Under the pieces are notes generated by a model. The model ran no database searches. It saw only the letters and a program-made list of their open reading frames with translations, and was not told where the DNA came from. A stretch of 64,000 bases of DNA from a virus. The translations under genes and the position numbers were made by a program. Positions 14,804 through 42,271 of the stretch are shown here, piece by piece. The stretch spans positions 34,805-98,804 of IMG/VR virus record IMGVR_UViG_3300011271_000003; one strand, given 5' to 3'. Within the stretch, counting starts at the first letter, position 1; each line of letters opens with the position of its first letter.

Positions 14804-15229
14804 TCATCCTGTAGCCTCCAGACGCTCAAGTTTCGCCTCTACTGCCTGGAGGCGCTTGTTAATCTCTAGGAAGCGTTGCTCTAGCGCTCCCAGTCTGGTG
14901 CCTCGTACTTTCTGAGCCTTTGCGACCCTCATAAAGACGTCAATGTCTGGATCGTCGAGTAGCTCCCACCTGGATGCAGCGCTCCCACCTCCTCGGCTTA
15001 GCTGCTTGATACAGTTCATCTGTTCGAGTCGGTTCAGACATGAAGAATAGTAGGGCGTAGGTAGCTCGAGCTGTCTGAAGAGCTTAGTTGTGTGCCCCTC
15101 CCAGATGAAGGCGTGCCGCTGGTCCCCACCGTCTGGGATGTTAACGGGTATGGCCCCTGTCTTCATTGCTGCGAACACTCTGCAGACATGTTCGTAGAGT
15201 TTTGGTGGAGCGCTTCGCATTGCGGTCAT
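14804..15229 (-). CDS. Probable winged-helix protein with C-terminal coiled coil
   Basis: LFRQLELPTPYYSSCLNRLEQMNCIKQLSRGG..SRWEL, then heptad tail LEQRFLEINKRLQAVEAKLERLE. Confidence 0.55.
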   Translation of the reverse strand: MTAMRSAPPKLYEHVCRVFAAMKTGAIPVNIPDGGDQRHAFIWEGHTTKLFRQLELPTPYYSSCLNRLEQMNCIKQLSRGGGSAASRWELLDDPDIDVFMRVAKAQKVRGTRLGALEQRFLEINKRLQAVEAKLERLEATG

Positions 15230-15689
15230 GCGGGCTCCAGCTTGGCCCTGATTCGTTCTGCTGTTCTAGCTGCGTCGTCCATCGCGAGTGCGACTCCTAG
15301 TAGGTCTTCCCAGCTCTTGAGAGTGGGATCTGACGCTATATGTTTCTGCTGTGCATCTTTTTGGTCCGCCCAACCTTCGAGCACCGTGTCGAGTATGAAT
15401 GCTAGGACATCGGTCTCGTCGTTGTCGAGCTCAAGGGTCATACTCTGACCTCCGTTGTGTAACACAAAAATCTGCCAAAATATATACGCCATCCACCCTC
15501 AGCGTCACCTCACGACGCCTACACCCGTGGCCTCCCGCGGTCCTACAGAAGCTATTCACCTTCATCCTCATGTCAGAAGGACTGAGCAGGCTCTCTTTTT
15601 CGGCATCCGCTACTGTTAGTGTTCCTTCGACAAGCGGTCGTCGACTACGACGAGAGTTATCTGTGACCTGAAACACAGACAATGACTGT

Positions 15690-16445
15690 TGTAACCGGCC
15701 GGTGAATGGGCCAGCGCTTCTGCAGGCGCTTCCTTGTACTGGTCTGGGTCCGATAGCTCACAGCGCCTTCACGTACACCATCGGACCCAGAAACTCCTAA
15801 GTGCCAGGGTGCCGCAGGGGTAGTGGTCACTAGTAACCAGCGCGCGTTACCCCTGCGACAGAGCGGAATCGAACCGTCCAGCATTACGATCTGCCCAAAT
15901 CTGTGTTGTTGTAAGTTCGGGCTCCGGGAGTCCTGTTCCTGGCCGGCTGACAACCGACCGTTACGGAACAGGACTCCCGTGAGGGTTTAGCCCGACGCGC
16001 TGTGCCCTGCACCTCGAAGAGGTGGACGCTCCCTCGCTATTCCTGGCCCCTTGCCAGTCACGGCTACTCACCAGGACTTTTGCGTCCAGCTCACAGCTCT
16101 AGGCACGTCGGCATCCGACACTTTCGTTCGGACCTCACTGCGAGCTGAACGTGGTGGCGCGCTTACCGTATCGTACCGTGCCATCTGTTAGCTGGCACGG
16201 GCATTTAAGGTAAGCGCGCTGTTTACGACCGGCTCCTCAGGGGCTCCTATACTTGCCGCTCGCGCGGGCCTTGCTGAGGACTTACCTGGTTGACCAGCGC
16301 CCGCCATCCCATTGGATGGCGGGCGTATCCAGTTCGAGGGTGGTCAGTGCCTACCGGTCCGTCTTCCCAGAGGGCGGTTCGGGTTCCCCACTCTCTGGGC
16401 GCTCCTTGTCACCGTACTAATCCGTCATGGGACGAGGAGCCTGTC
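15690..16445 (-). ncRNA. Large (~750 nt) highly structured non-coding RNA candidate; ends approximate
   Basis: No credible ORF; dense long inverted repeats (15, 12, 12, 11 and 9 bp); GNRA tetraloops on the - strand (AC-GAAA-GT, CCGC-GCGA-GCGG); internal T-loop GGTTCGATTCC at ~15865-15875. Confidence 0.7.
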
Positions 16446-16446
16446 T

Positions 16447-16461
16447 CTATTGAGTTGTCAA
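16447..16461 (-). promoter_or_regulatory. boxA-like antitermination motif (actinobacterial rrn leader type)
   Basis: TTGACAACTCAATAG, identical to 42194-42208 and similar to the rrn leader TTGAGAACTCAATAG. Confidence 0.65.
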
Positions 16462-16706
16462 AAGTTATCGGCGGAGCTGCCCCAGCCACCGGCCTAAGGG
16501 TTTCCACGACAGCTCCGCCTTCGGCTCTCCGTCAGCTTTGATCGTGTGCCTGCTCTCAAGGAACTAGCATCGATCTCGAGCTTTTGGCGAACCTAGTCAG
16601 CGGTGGAAGTTTGACCTCCCACCGCCGTCGACCGGTCTCAGCGTGTCGGCGCTGGCCTTGTCGATCCGGCGCTCGGTCAGCGACACCCGACCTGCGTACC
16701 GGAGCG

Positions 16707-16780
16707 TGGACCAGACGGGGTTCGAACCCGCGACTTTCCCGATGCTAGGCACGTCTGCCTAGACCCGCGCATACTGGCCC
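16707..16780 (-). ncRNA. 74-nt tRNA-like RNA lacking a D-stem and anticodon loop
   Basis: Acceptor GGGCCAG/CTGGTCC+A, T-arm GCGGG-TTCGAAC-CCCGT, central hairpin CTAGGCA-GACG-TGCCTAG. Confidence 0.75.
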
Positions 16781-16785
16781 ATCCG

Positions 16786-16885
16786 TGGGTGGGAGGGATT
16801 TGAACCCTCGAGCAGTTTCGCTGGGAGCAGCGACCCCGCGATACTTCCCTAGTATCACCGAACGGCCTCTAGCGGCATACCACCC
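16786..16885 (-). ncRNA. ~100-nt atypical tRNA-like RNA
   Basis: Acceptor GGGTGG/CCACCC, T-arm GAGGG-TTCAAAT-CCCTC, mini D-arm GCC/GGC, 8-bp stem GTGATACT/AGTATCGC with a 5-nt loop, extra arm TCGCTG/CAGCGA. Confidence 0.7.
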
Positions 16886-16934
16886 TACCACCTTACCGAC
16901 GAGAAGGGCATCAGCTCTTACCGTCGGAGGAGGT

Positions 16935-17525
16935 TTATTCAGCCTCGACGACCTCGGAGCCGTCGGTCACTTCGGCCTCTTCCTCCGCCTCGACCGGAAC
17001 GGTCCCTGGCACCTGCACAGCTGCCTTAGCCGTGGTCGTTCCGGAGGCCTTGGCTGCCTTCTCTGCGGCCTTAGCTGCCTTAGCGTCCGCCTTGGCCTGG
17101 TCACGCTCGCCCTTGCGACCCCACCAGGCTACGACCTCAGCGATCACGACGCCAGGCCGAGTGAGAGTAACGCCGTGCTCGCTGACCTGCGGCTCAGCGA
17201 AGGTGTTGCCCTCCGCGTCGTAGTGCTTGACGGGGAACGGGTCGTCCTTGCCCGGTGACTTCACGAAGCCGTACATGCGCTGCGGCTGGAAGTTCGCATC
17301 CACGAACGGTGCGGATGCGCCTTCCTCCTTGTGCGTCTTCAGCCAGTTCAGCGCCTCGATCGGAGTCGAGACACCTTCCGGCAGCTTGTGCTTCGTAGCC
17401 GGGTTCGTGGTACCTGAGGTCGGCTGCGCTGGGACCGCTTCGGTCCCAGCAACCTCCTGCCCGTTGGTAGCAGCTTCGGCCTGTGCTTCCTCGGCCGCCG
17501 GGGCCTCGGTCTGCATGTCAGTCAT
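16935..17525 (-). CDS. Putative nucleic-acid-binding protein (TP...PQ..YG family) with low-complexity tails; first gene of the ncRNA operon
   Basis: STPIEALNWL...FQPQRMYGFVKS core, AKAAKAAEKAAK tail; directly downstream of the 17616-17648 promoter. Confidence 0.7.
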   Translation of the reverse strand: MTDMQTEAPAAEEAQAEAATNGQEVAGTEAVPAQPTSGTTNPATKHKLPEGVSTPIEALNWLKTHKEEGASAPFVDANFQPQRMYGFVKSPGKDDPFPVKHYDAEGNTFAEPQVSEHGVTLTRPGVVIAEVVAWWGRKGERDQAKADAKAAKAAEKAAKASGTTTAKAAVQVPGTVPVEAEEEAEVTDGSEVVEAE

Positions 17526-18139: not shown

Positions 18140-18994
18140 TCAGCACCCGCTGATATTATGGAACTGGGTAAGGGCATCGGTTGTCACCTGGTTCGGGTGA
18201 ACGAACAGCGCGATCGTGAATGCCGCCGTCGTATCTGGGGTCCAGATGTCCACGGTTACGCCAGCCGCCTGGAATGCCCTCACCTGGAATCCCGTGAGGT
18301 AGCCCGTAGCCGCATCCACCTGGGACGAGCCGCCCGCTCCTGCTGCTGTCAGTGGCCAGAACGGGGCGACTAGCAGGTGCGTGCGCTCGCCCGGGTAGGC
18401 CTTGCGCACAGCCGCTAGGCCGGTGACCGAGGTACCGGATACGGTAGTGAACGTGCTGGCCGCAGCCGCCTTCATGACCGCAATGTACGCCGCGAACTCA
18501 GCCGCCGTCCAGCTAGATGATTCCTCGACCTCGACCTTCTCTCCGAGGGTCTTGGCTCGCGCCAGGTATGCTGTCAGCGTCGGTAGGTGTTCGTAGGTCA
18601 GTCCTGAGGGCGGCGTTGTCGAAGTGCCAGGTACCAGGTAAAGCCGCTGAGCCGTTAGTTGTGTAACGGTGTAGTTTTGTGGCGGTCCAGTCAGGTTGGT
18701 AAAGTACTGAAGTGCTGCGCCGTGCATAATGATCGGTACAGGTGACTGGCCTCCACCTGACATGTTGACGTCGGTCTCTACCCACGTCGCTTTGCCGTTC
18801 ACTGAAGCCGCTGTGATCGCGCCAAGACTGTTCTCAGGTAGTCCCCAATACGGGTAGTGAAACCCCATATGCGCTACTAGAGTCGGACAAGTTGCTGTCG
18901 CAGCTTGAACGCCTCCTGGAGGAGGAGGCAGGAGTACAGCTATGGCAGCGAGTGCTGCAATTCCGAAATACTTATGAATCTTCATGTCTCTCAC
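18140..18994 (-). CDS. Secreted glycerophosphodiester phosphodiesterase (GDPD)-family protein
   Basis: Signal peptide, VAHMG...PENSLGA, VETDV, IIMHG, LPTL..YL, VDIWTPD and VTTD motifs. Confidence 0.8.
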   Translation of the reverse strand: MRDMKIHKYFGIAALAAIAVLLPPPPGGVQAATATCPTLVAHMGFHYPYWGLPENSLGAITAASVNGKATWVETDVNMSGGGQSPVPIIMHGAALQYFTNLTGPPQNYTVTQLTAQRLYLVPGTSTTPPSGLTYEHLPTLTAYLARAKTLGEKVEVEESSSWTAAEFAAYIAVMKAAAASTFTTVSGTSVTGLAAVRKAYPGERTHLLVAPFWPLTAAGAGGSSQVDAATGYLTGFQVRAFQAAGVTVDIWTPDTTAAFTIALFVHPNQVTTDALTQFHNISGC

Positions 18995-38077: not shown

Positions 38078-38123
38078 AGAGAAAAGGGCGTGGAATCTCA
38101 TGAGATTCCACGCCCTTTTCTCT
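38078..38123. terminator. Perfect 46-bp palindrome; probable terminator for the leftward early block
   Basis: AGAGAAAAGGGCGTGGAATCTCA|TGAGATTCCACGCCCTTTTCTCT immediately after the stop of 38125-38454. Confidence 0.7.
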
Positions 38124-40362: not shown

Positions 40363-40409
40363 GGTAGGAGCGGGAGCATCGCCGAAATTCTAATGCTCCC
40401 GCTCCTACC
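40363..40409 (-). terminator. 17-bp-stem hairpin (terminator or processing site)
   Basis: GGTAGGAGCGGGAGCAT/ATGCTCCCGCTCCTACC. Confidence 0.6.
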
Positions 40410-41781: not shown

Positions 41782-42214
41782 TACAACTTAACAACTCAAT
41801 AGTGTGTTTGTGTGTGTTAAACGTTCTAGCTAGTTGTTGACGTCTCGTTCACGTATTGTGTTGCGAGCTCTGAGTAGTTGACTTTACTTCTTCCTGAACG
41901 ACCGTTCTTGCGGTTGTCGATTTCTTGTGTCAACCACTTGTTGAATGACTCACCATCGAACATCACTTTGATTCCATGACCCTTACCACCAGCAGCTTTG
42001 AACTGCTTGTAGTTCGATGCGATCGTTCCTGACTTCGCGTAACCATAGAATGGTTGTGGATCTAGCTCGACGTTGATGTGGTTCTTCGCAAACATGATGT
42101 TGGTGATCATCATCGCAGCGTAAGGTGTGAGATCTTGCATGTTGGTTCACTCATTTCTTTTGTTGAAGTTTTGTTTGATCTCACACAAACACACTATTGA
42201 GTTGTCAAGTTGCA
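41782..42214 (-). repeat. 33-bp inverted repeat (41782-41814 / 42182-42214) enclosing gene 41826-42140; includes boxA at 42194-42208
   Basis: 31/33 Watson-Crick pairs; both mismatches are G.U on the - strand transcript. Confidence 0.9.
41826..42140 (-). CDS. First gene of the leftward arm; LTPY...PQPFYG family protein
   Basis: Paralogue of 39577-40005. Confidence 0.8.
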   Translation of the reverse strand: MQDLTPYAAMMITNIMFAKNHINVELDPQPFYGYAKSGTIASNYKQFKAAGGKGHGIKVMFDGESFNKWLTQEIDNRKNGRSGRSKVNYSELATQYVNETSTTS

Positions 42215-42241
42215 TGTTGTTTTGTTTTTACTTCTAACTAT

Positions 42242-42271
42242 ATTATAATAAGGATCATGAAAATTTATACG
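42242..42271 (-). promoter_or_regulatory. Leftward promoter at the start of the early arm
   Basis: TATAAT in AT-rich context with a weak -35 (CGTATA) at N18; boxA ~35 nt downstream. Confidence 0.55.

What the first reader, a model, noticed from the sequence alone, without database searches (positions are those of the whole stretch)
15690..16445. ~750-nt ornate RNA: GOLLD-like or a new class
Seen stems (+ strand text): TCTGGGTCCGAT/ATCGGACCCAGA (15743-15791), GCAGGGGTA/TACCCCTGC, CGGGAGTCCTGTTCC/GGAACAGGACTCCCG (15925-15979), GGACGC/GCGTCC enclosing TCCTGG/CCAGGA, GCGCGCTTACC/GGTAAGCGCGC enclosing CCGTGCCA/TGGCACGG, TCCTCAG/CTGAGGA and CGCCCGCCATCC/GGATGGCGGGCG. GNRA loops read correctly on the - strand, there is an embedded T-loop, and the 10-mer AGCTCACAGC occurs twice (15755, 16088). 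Size and context resemble GOLLD, but I cannot confirm the family by eye.
Basis: partly seen in the sequence, partly recalled or inferred. Interest (0 to 1): 0.8.

Follow-up and report, generated by a model that had tools for sequence, protein, structure and literature searches.

The report
Phage structured RNA behind rRNA-type antiterminator
An uncultivated soil phage, probably of Actinobacteria, carries a 0.75-kb gene-free, very strongly base-paired stretch that is neither GOLLD nor ROOL; it sits in a 1.5-kb untranslated block behind two tRNA look-alikes and a copy of the host's ribosomal-RNA anti-termination signal, so it is most likely a new large non-coding RNA, though conserved structure could not be shown.

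Summary
The stems are real and far beyond chance. Folding z is -9.9 on the minus strand, and perfect inverted repeats are about 22-fold enriched. The stretch is non-coding. It matches neither GOLLD (RF02032) nor ROOL (RF03087), nor any other Rfam family at a family's curated score.

The new point is a 17-mer at 16461-16445 (-). I first read it as a promoter. It is in fact the boxA/boxC (CL2) element of actinobacterial rRNA-operon leaders, and it is kept at the same place in seven related phages.

The locus on the minus strand reads: conserved 196-aa gene, tRNA-Ser-like pseudo-tRNA, anticodon-less tRNA-Ala-like mimic, hairpins, boxA, then about 750 nt predicted to form two multi-helix domains.

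Best reading (about 0.5): a Rho-protected, tRNA-punctuated transcript that yields a stable large structured RNA acting in trans.

The main weakness is that syntenic ORF-free, strongly folding stretches in relatives share no alignable sequence with it. Covariation is therefore untestable for this RNA, and an array of fast-evolving hairpin modules remains a serious rival. No RNA-seq data were available.

This scan has noted similar tRNA-adjacent, hairpin-dense blocks in other phages.

The parts
16935..17525 (-). Conserved 196-aa protein gene that anchors the locus in all relatives. It has a confidently predicted core at residues 45-160 and a Lys/Ala-rich tail.
   Evidence: 25 homologues (alignment A2). 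AlphaFold2 gives pLDDT above 90 for residues 45-160. Only weak similarity (Z 4.0-4.8) to Xis/MerR-type winged-helix domains. No Pfam or PHROG family.
16785..16861 (-). tRNA-like element 1: a degenerate type-II, tRNA-Ser(GGA)-like pseudo-tRNA. By eye its acceptor stem may start near 16900.
   Evidence: ARAGORN draws it only at 80% of its default threshold. Its T arm is 100% identical over 21-23 nt to tRNA-Ser(GGA) genes of Actinomycetota genomes. By eye the anticodon loop reads UAGGGAA, lacking U33 (sequence).
16707..16780 (-). tRNA-like element 2. It has an acceptor stem with G3.U70 and A73 and a canonical T arm. A 7-bp hairpin with a 4-nt loop stands in place of the D and anticodon arms.
   Evidence: Rfam tRNA model 26.2 bits, below the gathering score of 29. 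ARAGORN at default settings finds none. At 80% threshold it is drawn with an aberrant anticodon loop.
16467..16706 (-). Hairpin-rich spacer between the tRNA-likes and boxA.
   Evidence: 200-nt windows score z -3.3 to -4.8 on the minus strand. Two stems of about 12 bp appear in the 1491-nt fold.
16445..16466 (-). rrn-type boxA/boxC (CL2-like) antitermination element, ACUUUUGACAACUCAAUAGAG.
   Evidence: The same motif with one mismatch lies 147-252 nt upstream of 16S rRNA in Actinomycetota genomes. It is kept at the same place in seven related phage loci. No sigma-70-type -10 follows it at promoter spacing.
15690..16444 (-). The reported structured RNA body. It has two 5' hairpins, then domain A (16340-16031, closed by CCCUCG/CGAGGG, about six hairpins), then domain B (16007-15708, closed by a 10-bp interrupted helix, with nested hairpins and the T-loop motif).
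   Evidence: MFE -370.9 kcal/mol, z -9.9. Helix probabilities: domain A closure 0.97, domain B closure 1.00, local stems 0.75-1.00. GC 0.59-0.64 against a phage mean of about 0.55.
15442..15689 (-). Untranslated tail with little excess structure (z near 0). It contains a terminator-like hairpin plus U-rich run at 15505-15486 and a sigma-70-like promoter match at 15508-15479 before the next gene.
   Evidence: Terminator and promoter scan; sliding z-scores.
15226..15441 (-). Next gene (71 aa counted from the ATG at 15441, which has a GGAG 8 nt upstream). It is homologous to the gene that follows the syntenic gap in relative L005.
   Evidence: Sequence read. Weak blastn match to L005 5478-5533. 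L005 sequence.

Best explanation
The 756-nt stretch is the body of a structured non-coding RNA gene. It lies inside a 1.49-kb untranslated, minus-strand block (15442-16934) of a 98.8-kb soil phage whose host is probably an actinobacterium. The block is organised like a ribosomal RNA operon spacer: two tRNA-shaped, non-decoding elements, then a copy of the host rrn-leader boxA/boxC signal, then the large RNA.

Proposed mechanism:
1. RNA polymerase reading leftward from the upstream gene transcribes boxA.
2. The host Nus factors (NusB/NusE on boxA, NusA on the CUCAAUAG part) assemble an rrn-type antitermination complex. Rho then cannot terminate in the long ribosome-free transcript, and long-range helices are helped to form co-transcriptionally.
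3. RNase P and RNase Z cut at the tRNA-like elements and separate the RNA from the upstream mRNA.
4. The released, very stable RNA of about 0.75-1.0 kb, with two multi-helix domains, accumulates and acts in trans as a scaffold or decoy for a host component.

What is shown: the structure excess, the lack of coding capacity, the tRNA-likes, the identity and conservation of the boxA motif, and the absence of any known RNA family. What is inferred: transcription, processing, a single large product, and any trans-acting role.
For: Structure excess: z -9.9, about 22-fold enrichment of perfect inverted repeats, and a structured zone bounded by genes with z near 0.

Non-coding: all three stop codons occur in every sense frame and there is no protein similarity to the relative's gap.

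The boxA motif: it matches the Actinomycetota 16S leader element with 1-2 mismatches. 43 of 151 genomes match, with several copies per genome, and the copies examined lie 147-252 nt upstream of SSU rRNA.

Literature on boxA: the mycobacterial CL2 leader motif is described as the putative BoxA antiterminator (PMC10218544). [quoted passage not shown]

Conservation: the motif is kept downstream of the same gene in seven relatives down to about 42% protein identity.

Synteny: relatives carry ORF-free, strongly folding stretches of 590-710 nt at the same place (L005 z -5.6; L095 z -9.9 and L074/L075 z -4.3/-5.3), always folding better on the gene-sense strand.

Structure selection in a relative pair: between L074 and L075, every substitution that falls in a predicted pair keeps pairing (1 compensatory, 4 wobble-type, 0 disruptive), and the indels remove or add whole hairpins.

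Strand: the T arms of the tRNA-likes read correctly only on the minus strand and match host tRNAs.

Host: the nearest cultured portal proteins are from Arthrobacter, Gordonia and Mycobacterium phages.
Against: There is no expression data. No homologue can be aligned to this RNA, so there is no covariation for it. The closest relative (upstream gene 78% nt identity over 227 nt) shares only the boxA motif, and four syntenic stretches share no k-mer beyond the tRNA T-loop. That is unlike GOLLD, ROOL or OLE, which keep many invariant nucleotides.

Folding does not favour the minus strand uniformly: in 16100-16500 the plus strand folds slightly better. G.U counts in long helices are equal on both strands here, 8 against 8.

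The domain A closing helix disappears when the whole 1491-nt gap is folded, so the global architecture is uncertain.

boxA is also present in relatives whose downstream spacer is not structured (L090 and L093, z about +0.5). It may therefore serve downstream genes rather than this RNA.

Stems of 11-15 perfect pairs are unusually regular for an ornate RNA.
Confidence: 0.5

Rival explanations
1. The region is a fast-evolving string of independent hairpin modules rather than one folded RNA. The modules would act in cis or as processing substrates, for example as RNase III sites, mRNA-end stabilisers, or pause/termination barriers that only boxA-modified polymerase can cross. That would time the expression of the genes to the left, as in a lambda nut-terminator arrangement.
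For: The robust elements are local stems of 11-15 bp. Relatives show the same style of tandem long stems with unrelated sequences, and hairpins are gained or lost as whole modules. boxA is conserved even where no structured RNA follows. The phage's other two boxA copies sit in the divergent control region at 41.8-42.2 kb, in a nut-like position.
Against: The hairpins lack U-tails, and the scan finds only one terminator-like site on this strand, at 15505-15486, outside the body. 0.75-1.4 kb is a lot of sequence for a timing barrier. The raised GC and a z of -9.9 look more like a stable RNA product. Two long-range closing helices are predicted with probability at least 0.97.
Confidence: 0.3
2. 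The feature works at the DNA level: a cluster of inverted repeats forming cruciforms or single-strand hairpins, serving as a replication origin, a primosome or recombination site, or a protein-binding array.
For: Most stems are perfect palindromic arms that fold on either strand, and the plus strand also scores z -5.5. In part of the region the plus strand folds better. The neighbouring conserved protein has a weak winged-helix (DNA-binding type) resemblance.
Against: The region is GC-rich, not AT-rich, and has no iterons. The cumulative GC-skew turning point is at about 42 kb, not here. Several helices are lengthened by G.U pairs on the minus strand only, for example the 15-bp helices at 16151-16083 and 15791-15743. 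Strand-specific RNA signals (boxA, tRNA T arms) flank it. In L074/L075 the G-C to G-U type changes are neutral only at RNA level.
Confidence: 0.08
3. It is a very divergent member of a known large RNA family (GOLLD, ROOL, tmRNA, group I/II intron, RNase P) that the covariance models miss.
For: The context (phage, next to tRNA-type elements) is that of GOLLD and ROOL, and GOLLD is reported in Mycobacterium tRNA arrays (reference list of bioRxiv 2024.12.08.627333). A T-loop motif and a G3.U70 tRNA-like element recall tmRNA.
Against: No family reaches even E<=10 except a sub-threshold tRNA match. The GOLLD and ROOL models find nothing in the whole phage. ARAGORN at default settings finds no tmRNA. 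The tRNA-like element is contiguous rather than formed from the RNA's two ends.
Confidence: 0.04
4. It hides a protein gene, read with a recoded stop codon, a frameshift or a small ORF.
For: A 98-codon TTG-initiated ORF overlaps 15657-15953 on the minus strand.
Against: TAA, TAG and TGA together interrupt all sense frames: 14, 9 and 5 stops, with at least two kinds of stop in each frame. The ORF has no similarity to the ORF in the relative's gap, and tblastx between the two gaps finds nothing. The ORF lies across 13- to 15-bp stems.
Confidence: 0.02

Closest known systems
GOLLD RNA (Rfam RF02032)
   Same: Encoded by phages and prophages, often beside tRNA genes. Several hundred to more than 800 nt, highly structured, function unknown. 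Reported in actinobacterial (Mycobacterium) tRNA arrays (bioRxiv 2024.12.08.627333).
   Different: No match to the GOLLD model, which captures the universally conserved 3' region. No conserved nucleotides are shared with syntenic RNAs of relatives. No evidence on multimer formation.
ROOL RNA (Rfam RF03087)
   Same: A phage or prophage RNA near tRNA islands, about 0.6 kb, with a complex fold.
   Different: No match at E<=10 (the control genomes also gave nothing, so this search alone is weak, but searches agree). No pseudoknot or covariation evidence here.
Bacterial rRNA operon leader/spacer antitermination (boxA/boxC with NusB, NusE, NusA; mycobacterial CL2 motif) and lambda nut sites
   Same: The 17-mer before the RNA is the actinobacterial rrn-leader element with 1-2 mismatches. 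The order tRNA(-like), then boxA, then a long structured untranslated RNA copies the 16S-tRNA-boxA-23S layout. The two further copies in the divergent control region resemble nutL/nutR in position.
   Different: It is carried by a phage and precedes an RNA that is not rRNA. No complementary copy downstream forms a processing stalk around this RNA (one search is uninformative). Binding of Nus factors is untested.
boxA-protected CRISPR arrays and other long non-coding transcripts
   Same: A boxA placed just upstream of a long untranslated, hairpin-rich transcript to keep polymerase going (PMC7862264).
   Different: There are no repeats or spacers here; every hairpin is unique.
tRNA-adjacent stable RNAs of large phages
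   Same: ORF-free, hairpin-dense blocks with aberrant tRNA-shaped elements inside phage tRNA regions.
   Different: Known to me here only from unchecked notes of this scan. There is no sequence relation, and none of those notes reports an rrn-type boxA.

Membership tests
GOLLD (RF02032) | Match to the covariance model of the conserved 3' core | tested here: not met
   No match at E<=10 in the whole 98.8-kb phage. Nothing at gathering score in the window or at E<=10 in 15300-17000.
GOLLD (RF02032) | Phage or prophage location near tRNA genes | tested here: met
   The record is a phage genome with direct terminal repeats. Two tRNA-like elements lie 260-420 nt upstream, and relatives carry true tRNAs at the locus.
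GOLLD (RF02032) | Homo-multimeric nanocage | not testable with these tools
   Needs cryo-EM or mass photometry.
ROOL (RF03087) | Match to the covariance model | tested here: not met
   No match at E<=10 (though the controls also gave nothing). Searches likewise show no ROOL match.
tmRNA | tRNA-like domain formed by the 5' and 3' ends, plus a tag reading frame and pseudoknots, as detected by ARAGORN or Rfam | tested here: not met
   ARAGORN at default settings finds none in the window or the genome. There is no Rfam tmRNA hit. The calls made at a 70% threshold are mutually overlapping and have no recognised tag, so I disregard them.
Canonical tRNA | Cloverleaf with a 7-nt anticodon loop, scoring above the Rfam or ARAGORN thresholds | tested here: not met
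   26.2 bits against a gathering score of 29 for element 2. ARAGORN calls both elements only at 80% of its threshold.
rrn-type boxA/boxC antiterminator | Sequence identity with the host-type rrn leader element, in the sense orientation of the transcript | tested here: met
   TTGACAACTCAATAGAG compares with TTGAGAACTCAATAGTG, found 147-252 nt upstream of 16S in Actinomycetota genomes. It is conserved in seven relatives.
rrn-type boxA/boxC antiterminator | Binding of NusB/NusE and NusA, and suppression of Rho termination | not testable with these tools
   Needs binding assays and transcription assays with boxA mutants.
Group I / group II introns, RNase P RNA, other Rfam large RNAs | Covariance-model match | tested here: not met
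   None at E<=10 in 15300-17000. The one group-II-D1D4-1 hit is elsewhere in the genome (C1:67269-67336), at 10.5 bits and E 1.5.
New conserved structured RNA class | Alignable homologues with covarying base pairs | tested here: inconclusive
   Syntenic structured stretches exist but cannot be aligned to this one. Only the L074/L075 pair allows a small count: 1 compensatory, 4 wobble-compatible and 0 disruptive changes.

The most novel reading that the evidence does not exclude
A previously undescribed class of large (0.75-1 kb) phage RNA in actinophages, expressed as an 'rRNA-operon mimic'. tRNA mimics would serve as processing punctuation. A stolen host rrn boxA/boxC would recruit the ribosomal antitermination and RNA-chaperone complex, and a two-domain ornate RNA would then assemble into an RNA-only or RNA-protein particle. 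This would be a third solution alongside GOLLD and ROOL, and the first with a recognisable expression mechanism.
Probability: 0.25. Interest if true: 0.8.

Novelty: new variant of a known kind. Interest (0 to 1): 0.55.

Why it matters
Large structured RNAs next to phage tRNA genes (GOLLD, ROOL) are among the least understood RNAs, and none has a known function or a known mode of expression.

This locus adds two testable points. First, a phage has copied the host's rRNA-leader antitermination signal and placed it directly in front of a long untranslated, heavily folded RNA, as well as at its divergent control region. That predicts Nus-factor-dependent, Rho-resistant synthesis, which can be tested with simple reporter constructs. 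Second, in this phage lineage the RNA at this position turns over completely in sequence while keeping its length, hairpin density and flanking signals.

That pattern means either very relaxed, structure-only constraint or repeated replacement. Either outcome would be informative about how such RNAs evolve. The rrn-leader motif also gives a host clue (Actinomycetota) for an uncultivated 99-kb soil phage.

Tried and rejected
- **Promoter reading of the 17-mer.** I held this until. I rejected it because no -10 follows at 16-18 nt and because the motif is the actinobacterial rrn leader element. In unrelated low-GC viral contigs the same 17-mer is simply the -35 of a TTGACA-N17-TATAAT promoter, so the 65 exact matches in viral contigs are mostly irrelevant.
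- **The look-up of encoding contigs.** The contigs of homologues P0002-P0025, including one of 105 kb, could not be fetched.
- **Expression data.** No RNA holder was listed. The laid runs are contigs identical to the window and are probably its source; a third run gave only small fragments outside the RNA.
- **Sequence homologues of the RNA.** None in cultured phages. None in related loci. No shared k-mers except the tRNA T-loop. In 401 Actinomycetota genomes only the T arms of the tRNA-likes matched. The scan's own index held nothing.
- **A processing stalk between the 5' and 3' flanks.** The duplex energy was no better than shuffles, so the test is uninformative.
- **Strand assignment from G.U pairs in long helices.** No asymmetry in this RNA.
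- **The repeated 10-mer and other short direct repeats.** They occur at chance level.
- **ARAGORN at 70% threshold.** Its tmRNA and intron-tRNA calls overlap each other and are not credible.
- **Upstream 196-aa protein.** Foldseek against the PDB gave nothing at E<=0.001. VIA-align gave only Z up to 4.8 to Xis/MerR-type winged helices, too weak to name a function.
- **Genome-contig scan for that protein.** It returned one 21-residue match in a Streptomyces scaffold, which I treat as not meaningful.
- **The rrn-like leader in cultured phages.** Not found.
- **Covariance model from this RNA alone.** Not attempted.
- **Accession RF01998.** Some earlier notes of this scan quote it for GOLLD, but it is group-II-D1D4-1.
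- **Unpublished genomes.** No claim here rests on the genomes flagged as unpublished (G121, G089, G337, G240, G269, G002).

Full report
**Setting.** The window is bases 34805-98804 of a 98.8-kb IMG/VR phage record classed as having direct terminal repeats and as complete. The DNA comes from soil metagenomes. Genes around the finding lie on the minus strand. The finding sits in a gap without credible ORFs that runs from the stop of a 196-aa gene (16935) to the ATG of the next gene (15441, preceded by GGAG), 1,493 nt in all.

- A scan for perfect inverted repeats of at least 10 bp with loops up to 90 nt finds 40 in the whole phage. Six of them lie within 15743-16519, about 22 times the density elsewhere.
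- The 756 nt fold to -370.9 kcal/mol on the minus strand, against -298.7 +/- 7.3 for dinucleotide shuffles (z -9.9). The plus strand gives z -5.5.
- In 200-nt windows the excess structure starts near 15650 and ends near 16700, and the flanking genes score about zero. A 600-nt coding control scores 0.0.
- GC is 0.59-0.64 here, against about 0.55 for the phage.
- The stretch is not coding. Each sense frame has 5-14 stops of at least two kinds. The only sizeable ORF lies across 13- to 15-bp stems, and neither blastp nor tblastx finds similarity to the equivalent gap of the nearest relative.
- The repeated 10-mer is real but expected by chance.

**Known families.**
- cmscan of the whole window at gathering thresholds returns nothing.
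- A permissive scan of 15300-17000 at E<=10 returns only a sub-threshold tRNA match at 16780-16707 (-), 26.2 bits against a gathering score of 29, plus noise.
- Direct searches of the whole phage with GOLLD (RF02032, 416 positions) and ROOL (RF03087) give nothing at E<=10.
- ARAGORN finds no tRNA or tmRNA at default settings.

So the RNA is not a member of GOLLD, ROOL, tmRNA, RNase P or the intron families as Rfam 15 models them.

**The key flanking signal.** Immediately 5' of the reported stretch, on the minus strand, lies TTGACAACTCAATAGAG (16461-16445). It is conserved at the same spot in the only close relative in IMG/VR (L005, where the upstream gene is 78% identical in DNA over 227 nt), although nothing else in the gap is conserved. 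Two more copies exist in the phage, at 41788 (+) and 42208 (-).

I first took it for a promoter. A note from this scan on the same stretch called it boxA, so I tested that reading.
- In a sample of 151 Actinomycetota genomes, 43 carry the motif with at most 2 mismatches, often in several copies.
- The recurrent form is GTTTGAGAACTCAATAGTGTGTTTGGTGG. In the loci examined it lies 147-252 nt upstream of the 16S rRNA gene.
- The phage copies at 42 kb read CTTGACAACTCAATAGTGTGTTTGTGTG, which is almost the same element, including the GU-rich part.
- The literature describes the conserved CL2 motif of mycobacterial rrn leaders as the putative BoxA antiterminator (PMC10218544).
- It also describes the M. 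tuberculosis boxC as a specific NusA KH-domain site with a critical AUA (PMC2724277).
- From memory, not verified here, the crystallised boxC oligonucleotide is GAACUCAAUAG.
- No sigma-70-type -10 follows the motif at promoter spacing.
- The core TTGACAAYTNAAKA is kept downstream of the same gene in seven related loci, down to about 42% protein identity.

I conclude that this is an rrn-type boxA/boxC element on the minus-strand transcript. It also points to an actinobacterial host, as do the nearest cultured portal proteins, which come from Arthrobacter, Gordonia and Mycobacterium phages at 26% identity.

**Other parts of the gap.** Upstream of boxA are two tRNA-shaped elements.
- *Element 2 (16780-16707).* It has a 7-bp acceptor stem with G3.U70 and A73 and a canonical T arm. 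A 7-bp hairpin with a tetraloop stands where the D and anticodon arms should be (sequence).
- *Element 1 (about 16861-16785; the acceptor may start near 16900).* Its T arm is identical over 21-23 nt to tRNA-Ser(GGA) genes of many Actinomycetota. It has a long variable arm and an anticodon loop without U33. ARAGORN draws it only at 80% of its threshold.
- The relative L005 also has an aberrant tRNA (30.8 bits) just before its boxA. Other relatives have real tRNAs at the locus: Arg, Met and Ala.
- Between the tRNA-likes and boxA lie 240 nt with two stems of about 12 bp.
- After the 756 nt comes a 250-nt tail with little excess structure and a terminator-like hairpin with a U-rich run at 15505-15486.

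**Architecture of the RNA body.** Pair probabilities give:
- two 5' hairpins;
- domain A, closed by CCCUCG/CGAGGG (16340-16335 with 16036-16031, P 0.97) and holding about six hairpins;
- a small hairpin;
- domain B, closed by a 10-bp interrupted helix (16007-15997 with 15717-15708, P 1.0), holding the 15+8-bp hairpin, another hairpin and a sub-domain with the 13-bp and 15-bp stems and the T-loop motif.

The local stems are robust (P 0.75-1.0). The domain A closure is lost when the whole 1,491-nt gap is folded, so the global fold is a prediction only.

**Relatives.** The upstream protein has 25 homologues. Scans of viral and metagenome contigs gave 26 loci.

ORF-free, strongly folding stretches follow the gene in several of them:

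| Locus | Length (nt) | z |
|---|---|---|
| L005/L071/L086 | 711 | -5.6 |
| L095 | 592 | -9.9 |
| L074 | 635 | -4.3 |
| L075 | 667 | -5.3 |

L074 and L075 lie between tRNA-Arg and tRNA-Met. In every case the gene-sense strand folds better. All are built from tandem stems of 9-15 bp, and none hits a large Rfam family.

They share no alignable sequence with the window's RNA or with each other: no blastn matches, no collinear 8-mers, and only the T-loop heptamer in common. More distant relatives keep boxA but have a short, unstructured spacer (L090 and L093, z about +0.5; L087 z -3.9).

The one informative pair, L074 and L075, differs by whole-hairpin indels of 33 and 66 nt. Its substitutions in predicted pairs always keep pairing: one compensatory, four wobble-type, none disruptive. 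That is modest evidence that such stretches are under RNA-level structural selection.

**Interpretation.** Four features fit a long untranslated transcript that the phage protects from Rho and folds with the host's rrn machinery. These are a conserved boxA in sense orientation, strand-specific tRNA-type elements, the absence of coding capacity, and the extreme, GC-enriched structure. boxA elements are known to stand before long non-coding transcripts, including rRNA and CRISPR arrays, and to raise distal transcription (PMC7862264). The order tRNA-like, boxA, long structured RNA copies the 16S-tRNA-boxA-23S spacer. The tRNA-likes are plausible RNase P/Z punctuation.

I therefore favour a stable, trans-acting large RNA as the product (confidence about 0.5). 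Its function is unknown; by analogy with GOLLD and ROOL I guess a scaffold or decoy for a host component.

The strongest rival (about 0.3) is an array of independent, fast-turning-over hairpin modules with a cis role in processing or timed read-through. It is favoured by three things: the complete lack of conserved nucleotides, the modular indels, and boxA persisting where no structured RNA follows. A DNA-level role (about 0.08) is disfavoured by the GC-richness, the lack of iterons, the skew minimum lying elsewhere and the RNA-specific flanking signals.

**Limits.**
- No RNA data were available.
- Strand evidence from folding alone is mixed.
- Host assignment is indirect.

**Relation to earlier notes of this scan.** Similar tRNA-adjacent, hairpin-dense, ORF-free blocks have been noted in other phages, with no sequence relation to this one. 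The boxA reading came from a first-stage note on this same stretch and was tested here. Two earlier notes quote RF01998 for GOLLD; that accession is a group II intron family, and GOLLD is RF02032.

Noticed in passing
window 41782-42214: The other two boxA/boxC copies (41788 +, 42208 -) form an inverted pair of about 33 nt flanking a 104-aa minus-strand gene (about 41836-42149). A TATAAT-like box lies at about 42240-42250 upstream of the minus copy. They could be nutL/nutR-like sites for divergent transcription, or the two arms of a long stem around the gene, as another first-stage note proposes.
   Followed up: partly
window 16785-16861 (-): The T arm of tRNA-like element 1 is 100% identical over 21-23 nt to tRNA-Ser(GGA) genes of many Actinomycetota genomes. 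The element looks like a captured and degenerated host type-II tRNA (anticodon loop UAGGGAA, A at position 33).
   Followed up: partly
window 16935-17525 (-): The 196-aa protein that anchors the locus in all relatives has no Pfam or PHROG family. It has a confidently predicted core (residues 45-160), a weak Xis/MerR-type winged-helix resemblance (Z up to 4.8) and a Lys/Ala-rich, histone-tail-like C-terminus. A nucleic-acid-binding partner of the locus is possible but unsupported.
   Followed up: partly
L039 4819-5191 and L045 3603-3975 (viral contigs): The identical 17-mer lies 9 nt upstream of a tmRNA gene called by ARAGORN (tag AESRSAFALAA) in two unrelated viral contigs. In L020, L061 and L069 it precedes tRNA genes, and in L020 and L061 it clearly acts as the -35 of a TTGACA-N17-TATAAT promoter.
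   Followed up: partly
L074 948-1582 vs L075 1858-2524: Two near-identical soil contigs differ in their tRNA-flanked structured spacer by the precise presence or absence of whole hairpins (33 nt and 66 nt). This suggests that hairpin modules are gained and lost as units.
   Followed up: partly
window 38078-38123 and 40363-40409: These are the longest perfect inverted repeats of the phage (21-bp and 17-bp stems). They lie in a GC-rich stretch (38-40 kb, GC 0.60) with a confusing ORF pattern on both strands. Other RNA elements or strong terminators may be here.
   Followed up: no
window 18140-18994 (-): A phage-encoded glycerophosphodiester phosphodiesterase (GDPD) family protein (Pfam E 6e-9) lies two genes upstream of the RNA locus.
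   Followed up: no
Rfam accession used in earlier notes of this scan: RF01998, quoted for GOLLD in earlier follow-up notes, is group-II-D1D4-1. GOLLD is RF02032.
   Followed up: yes
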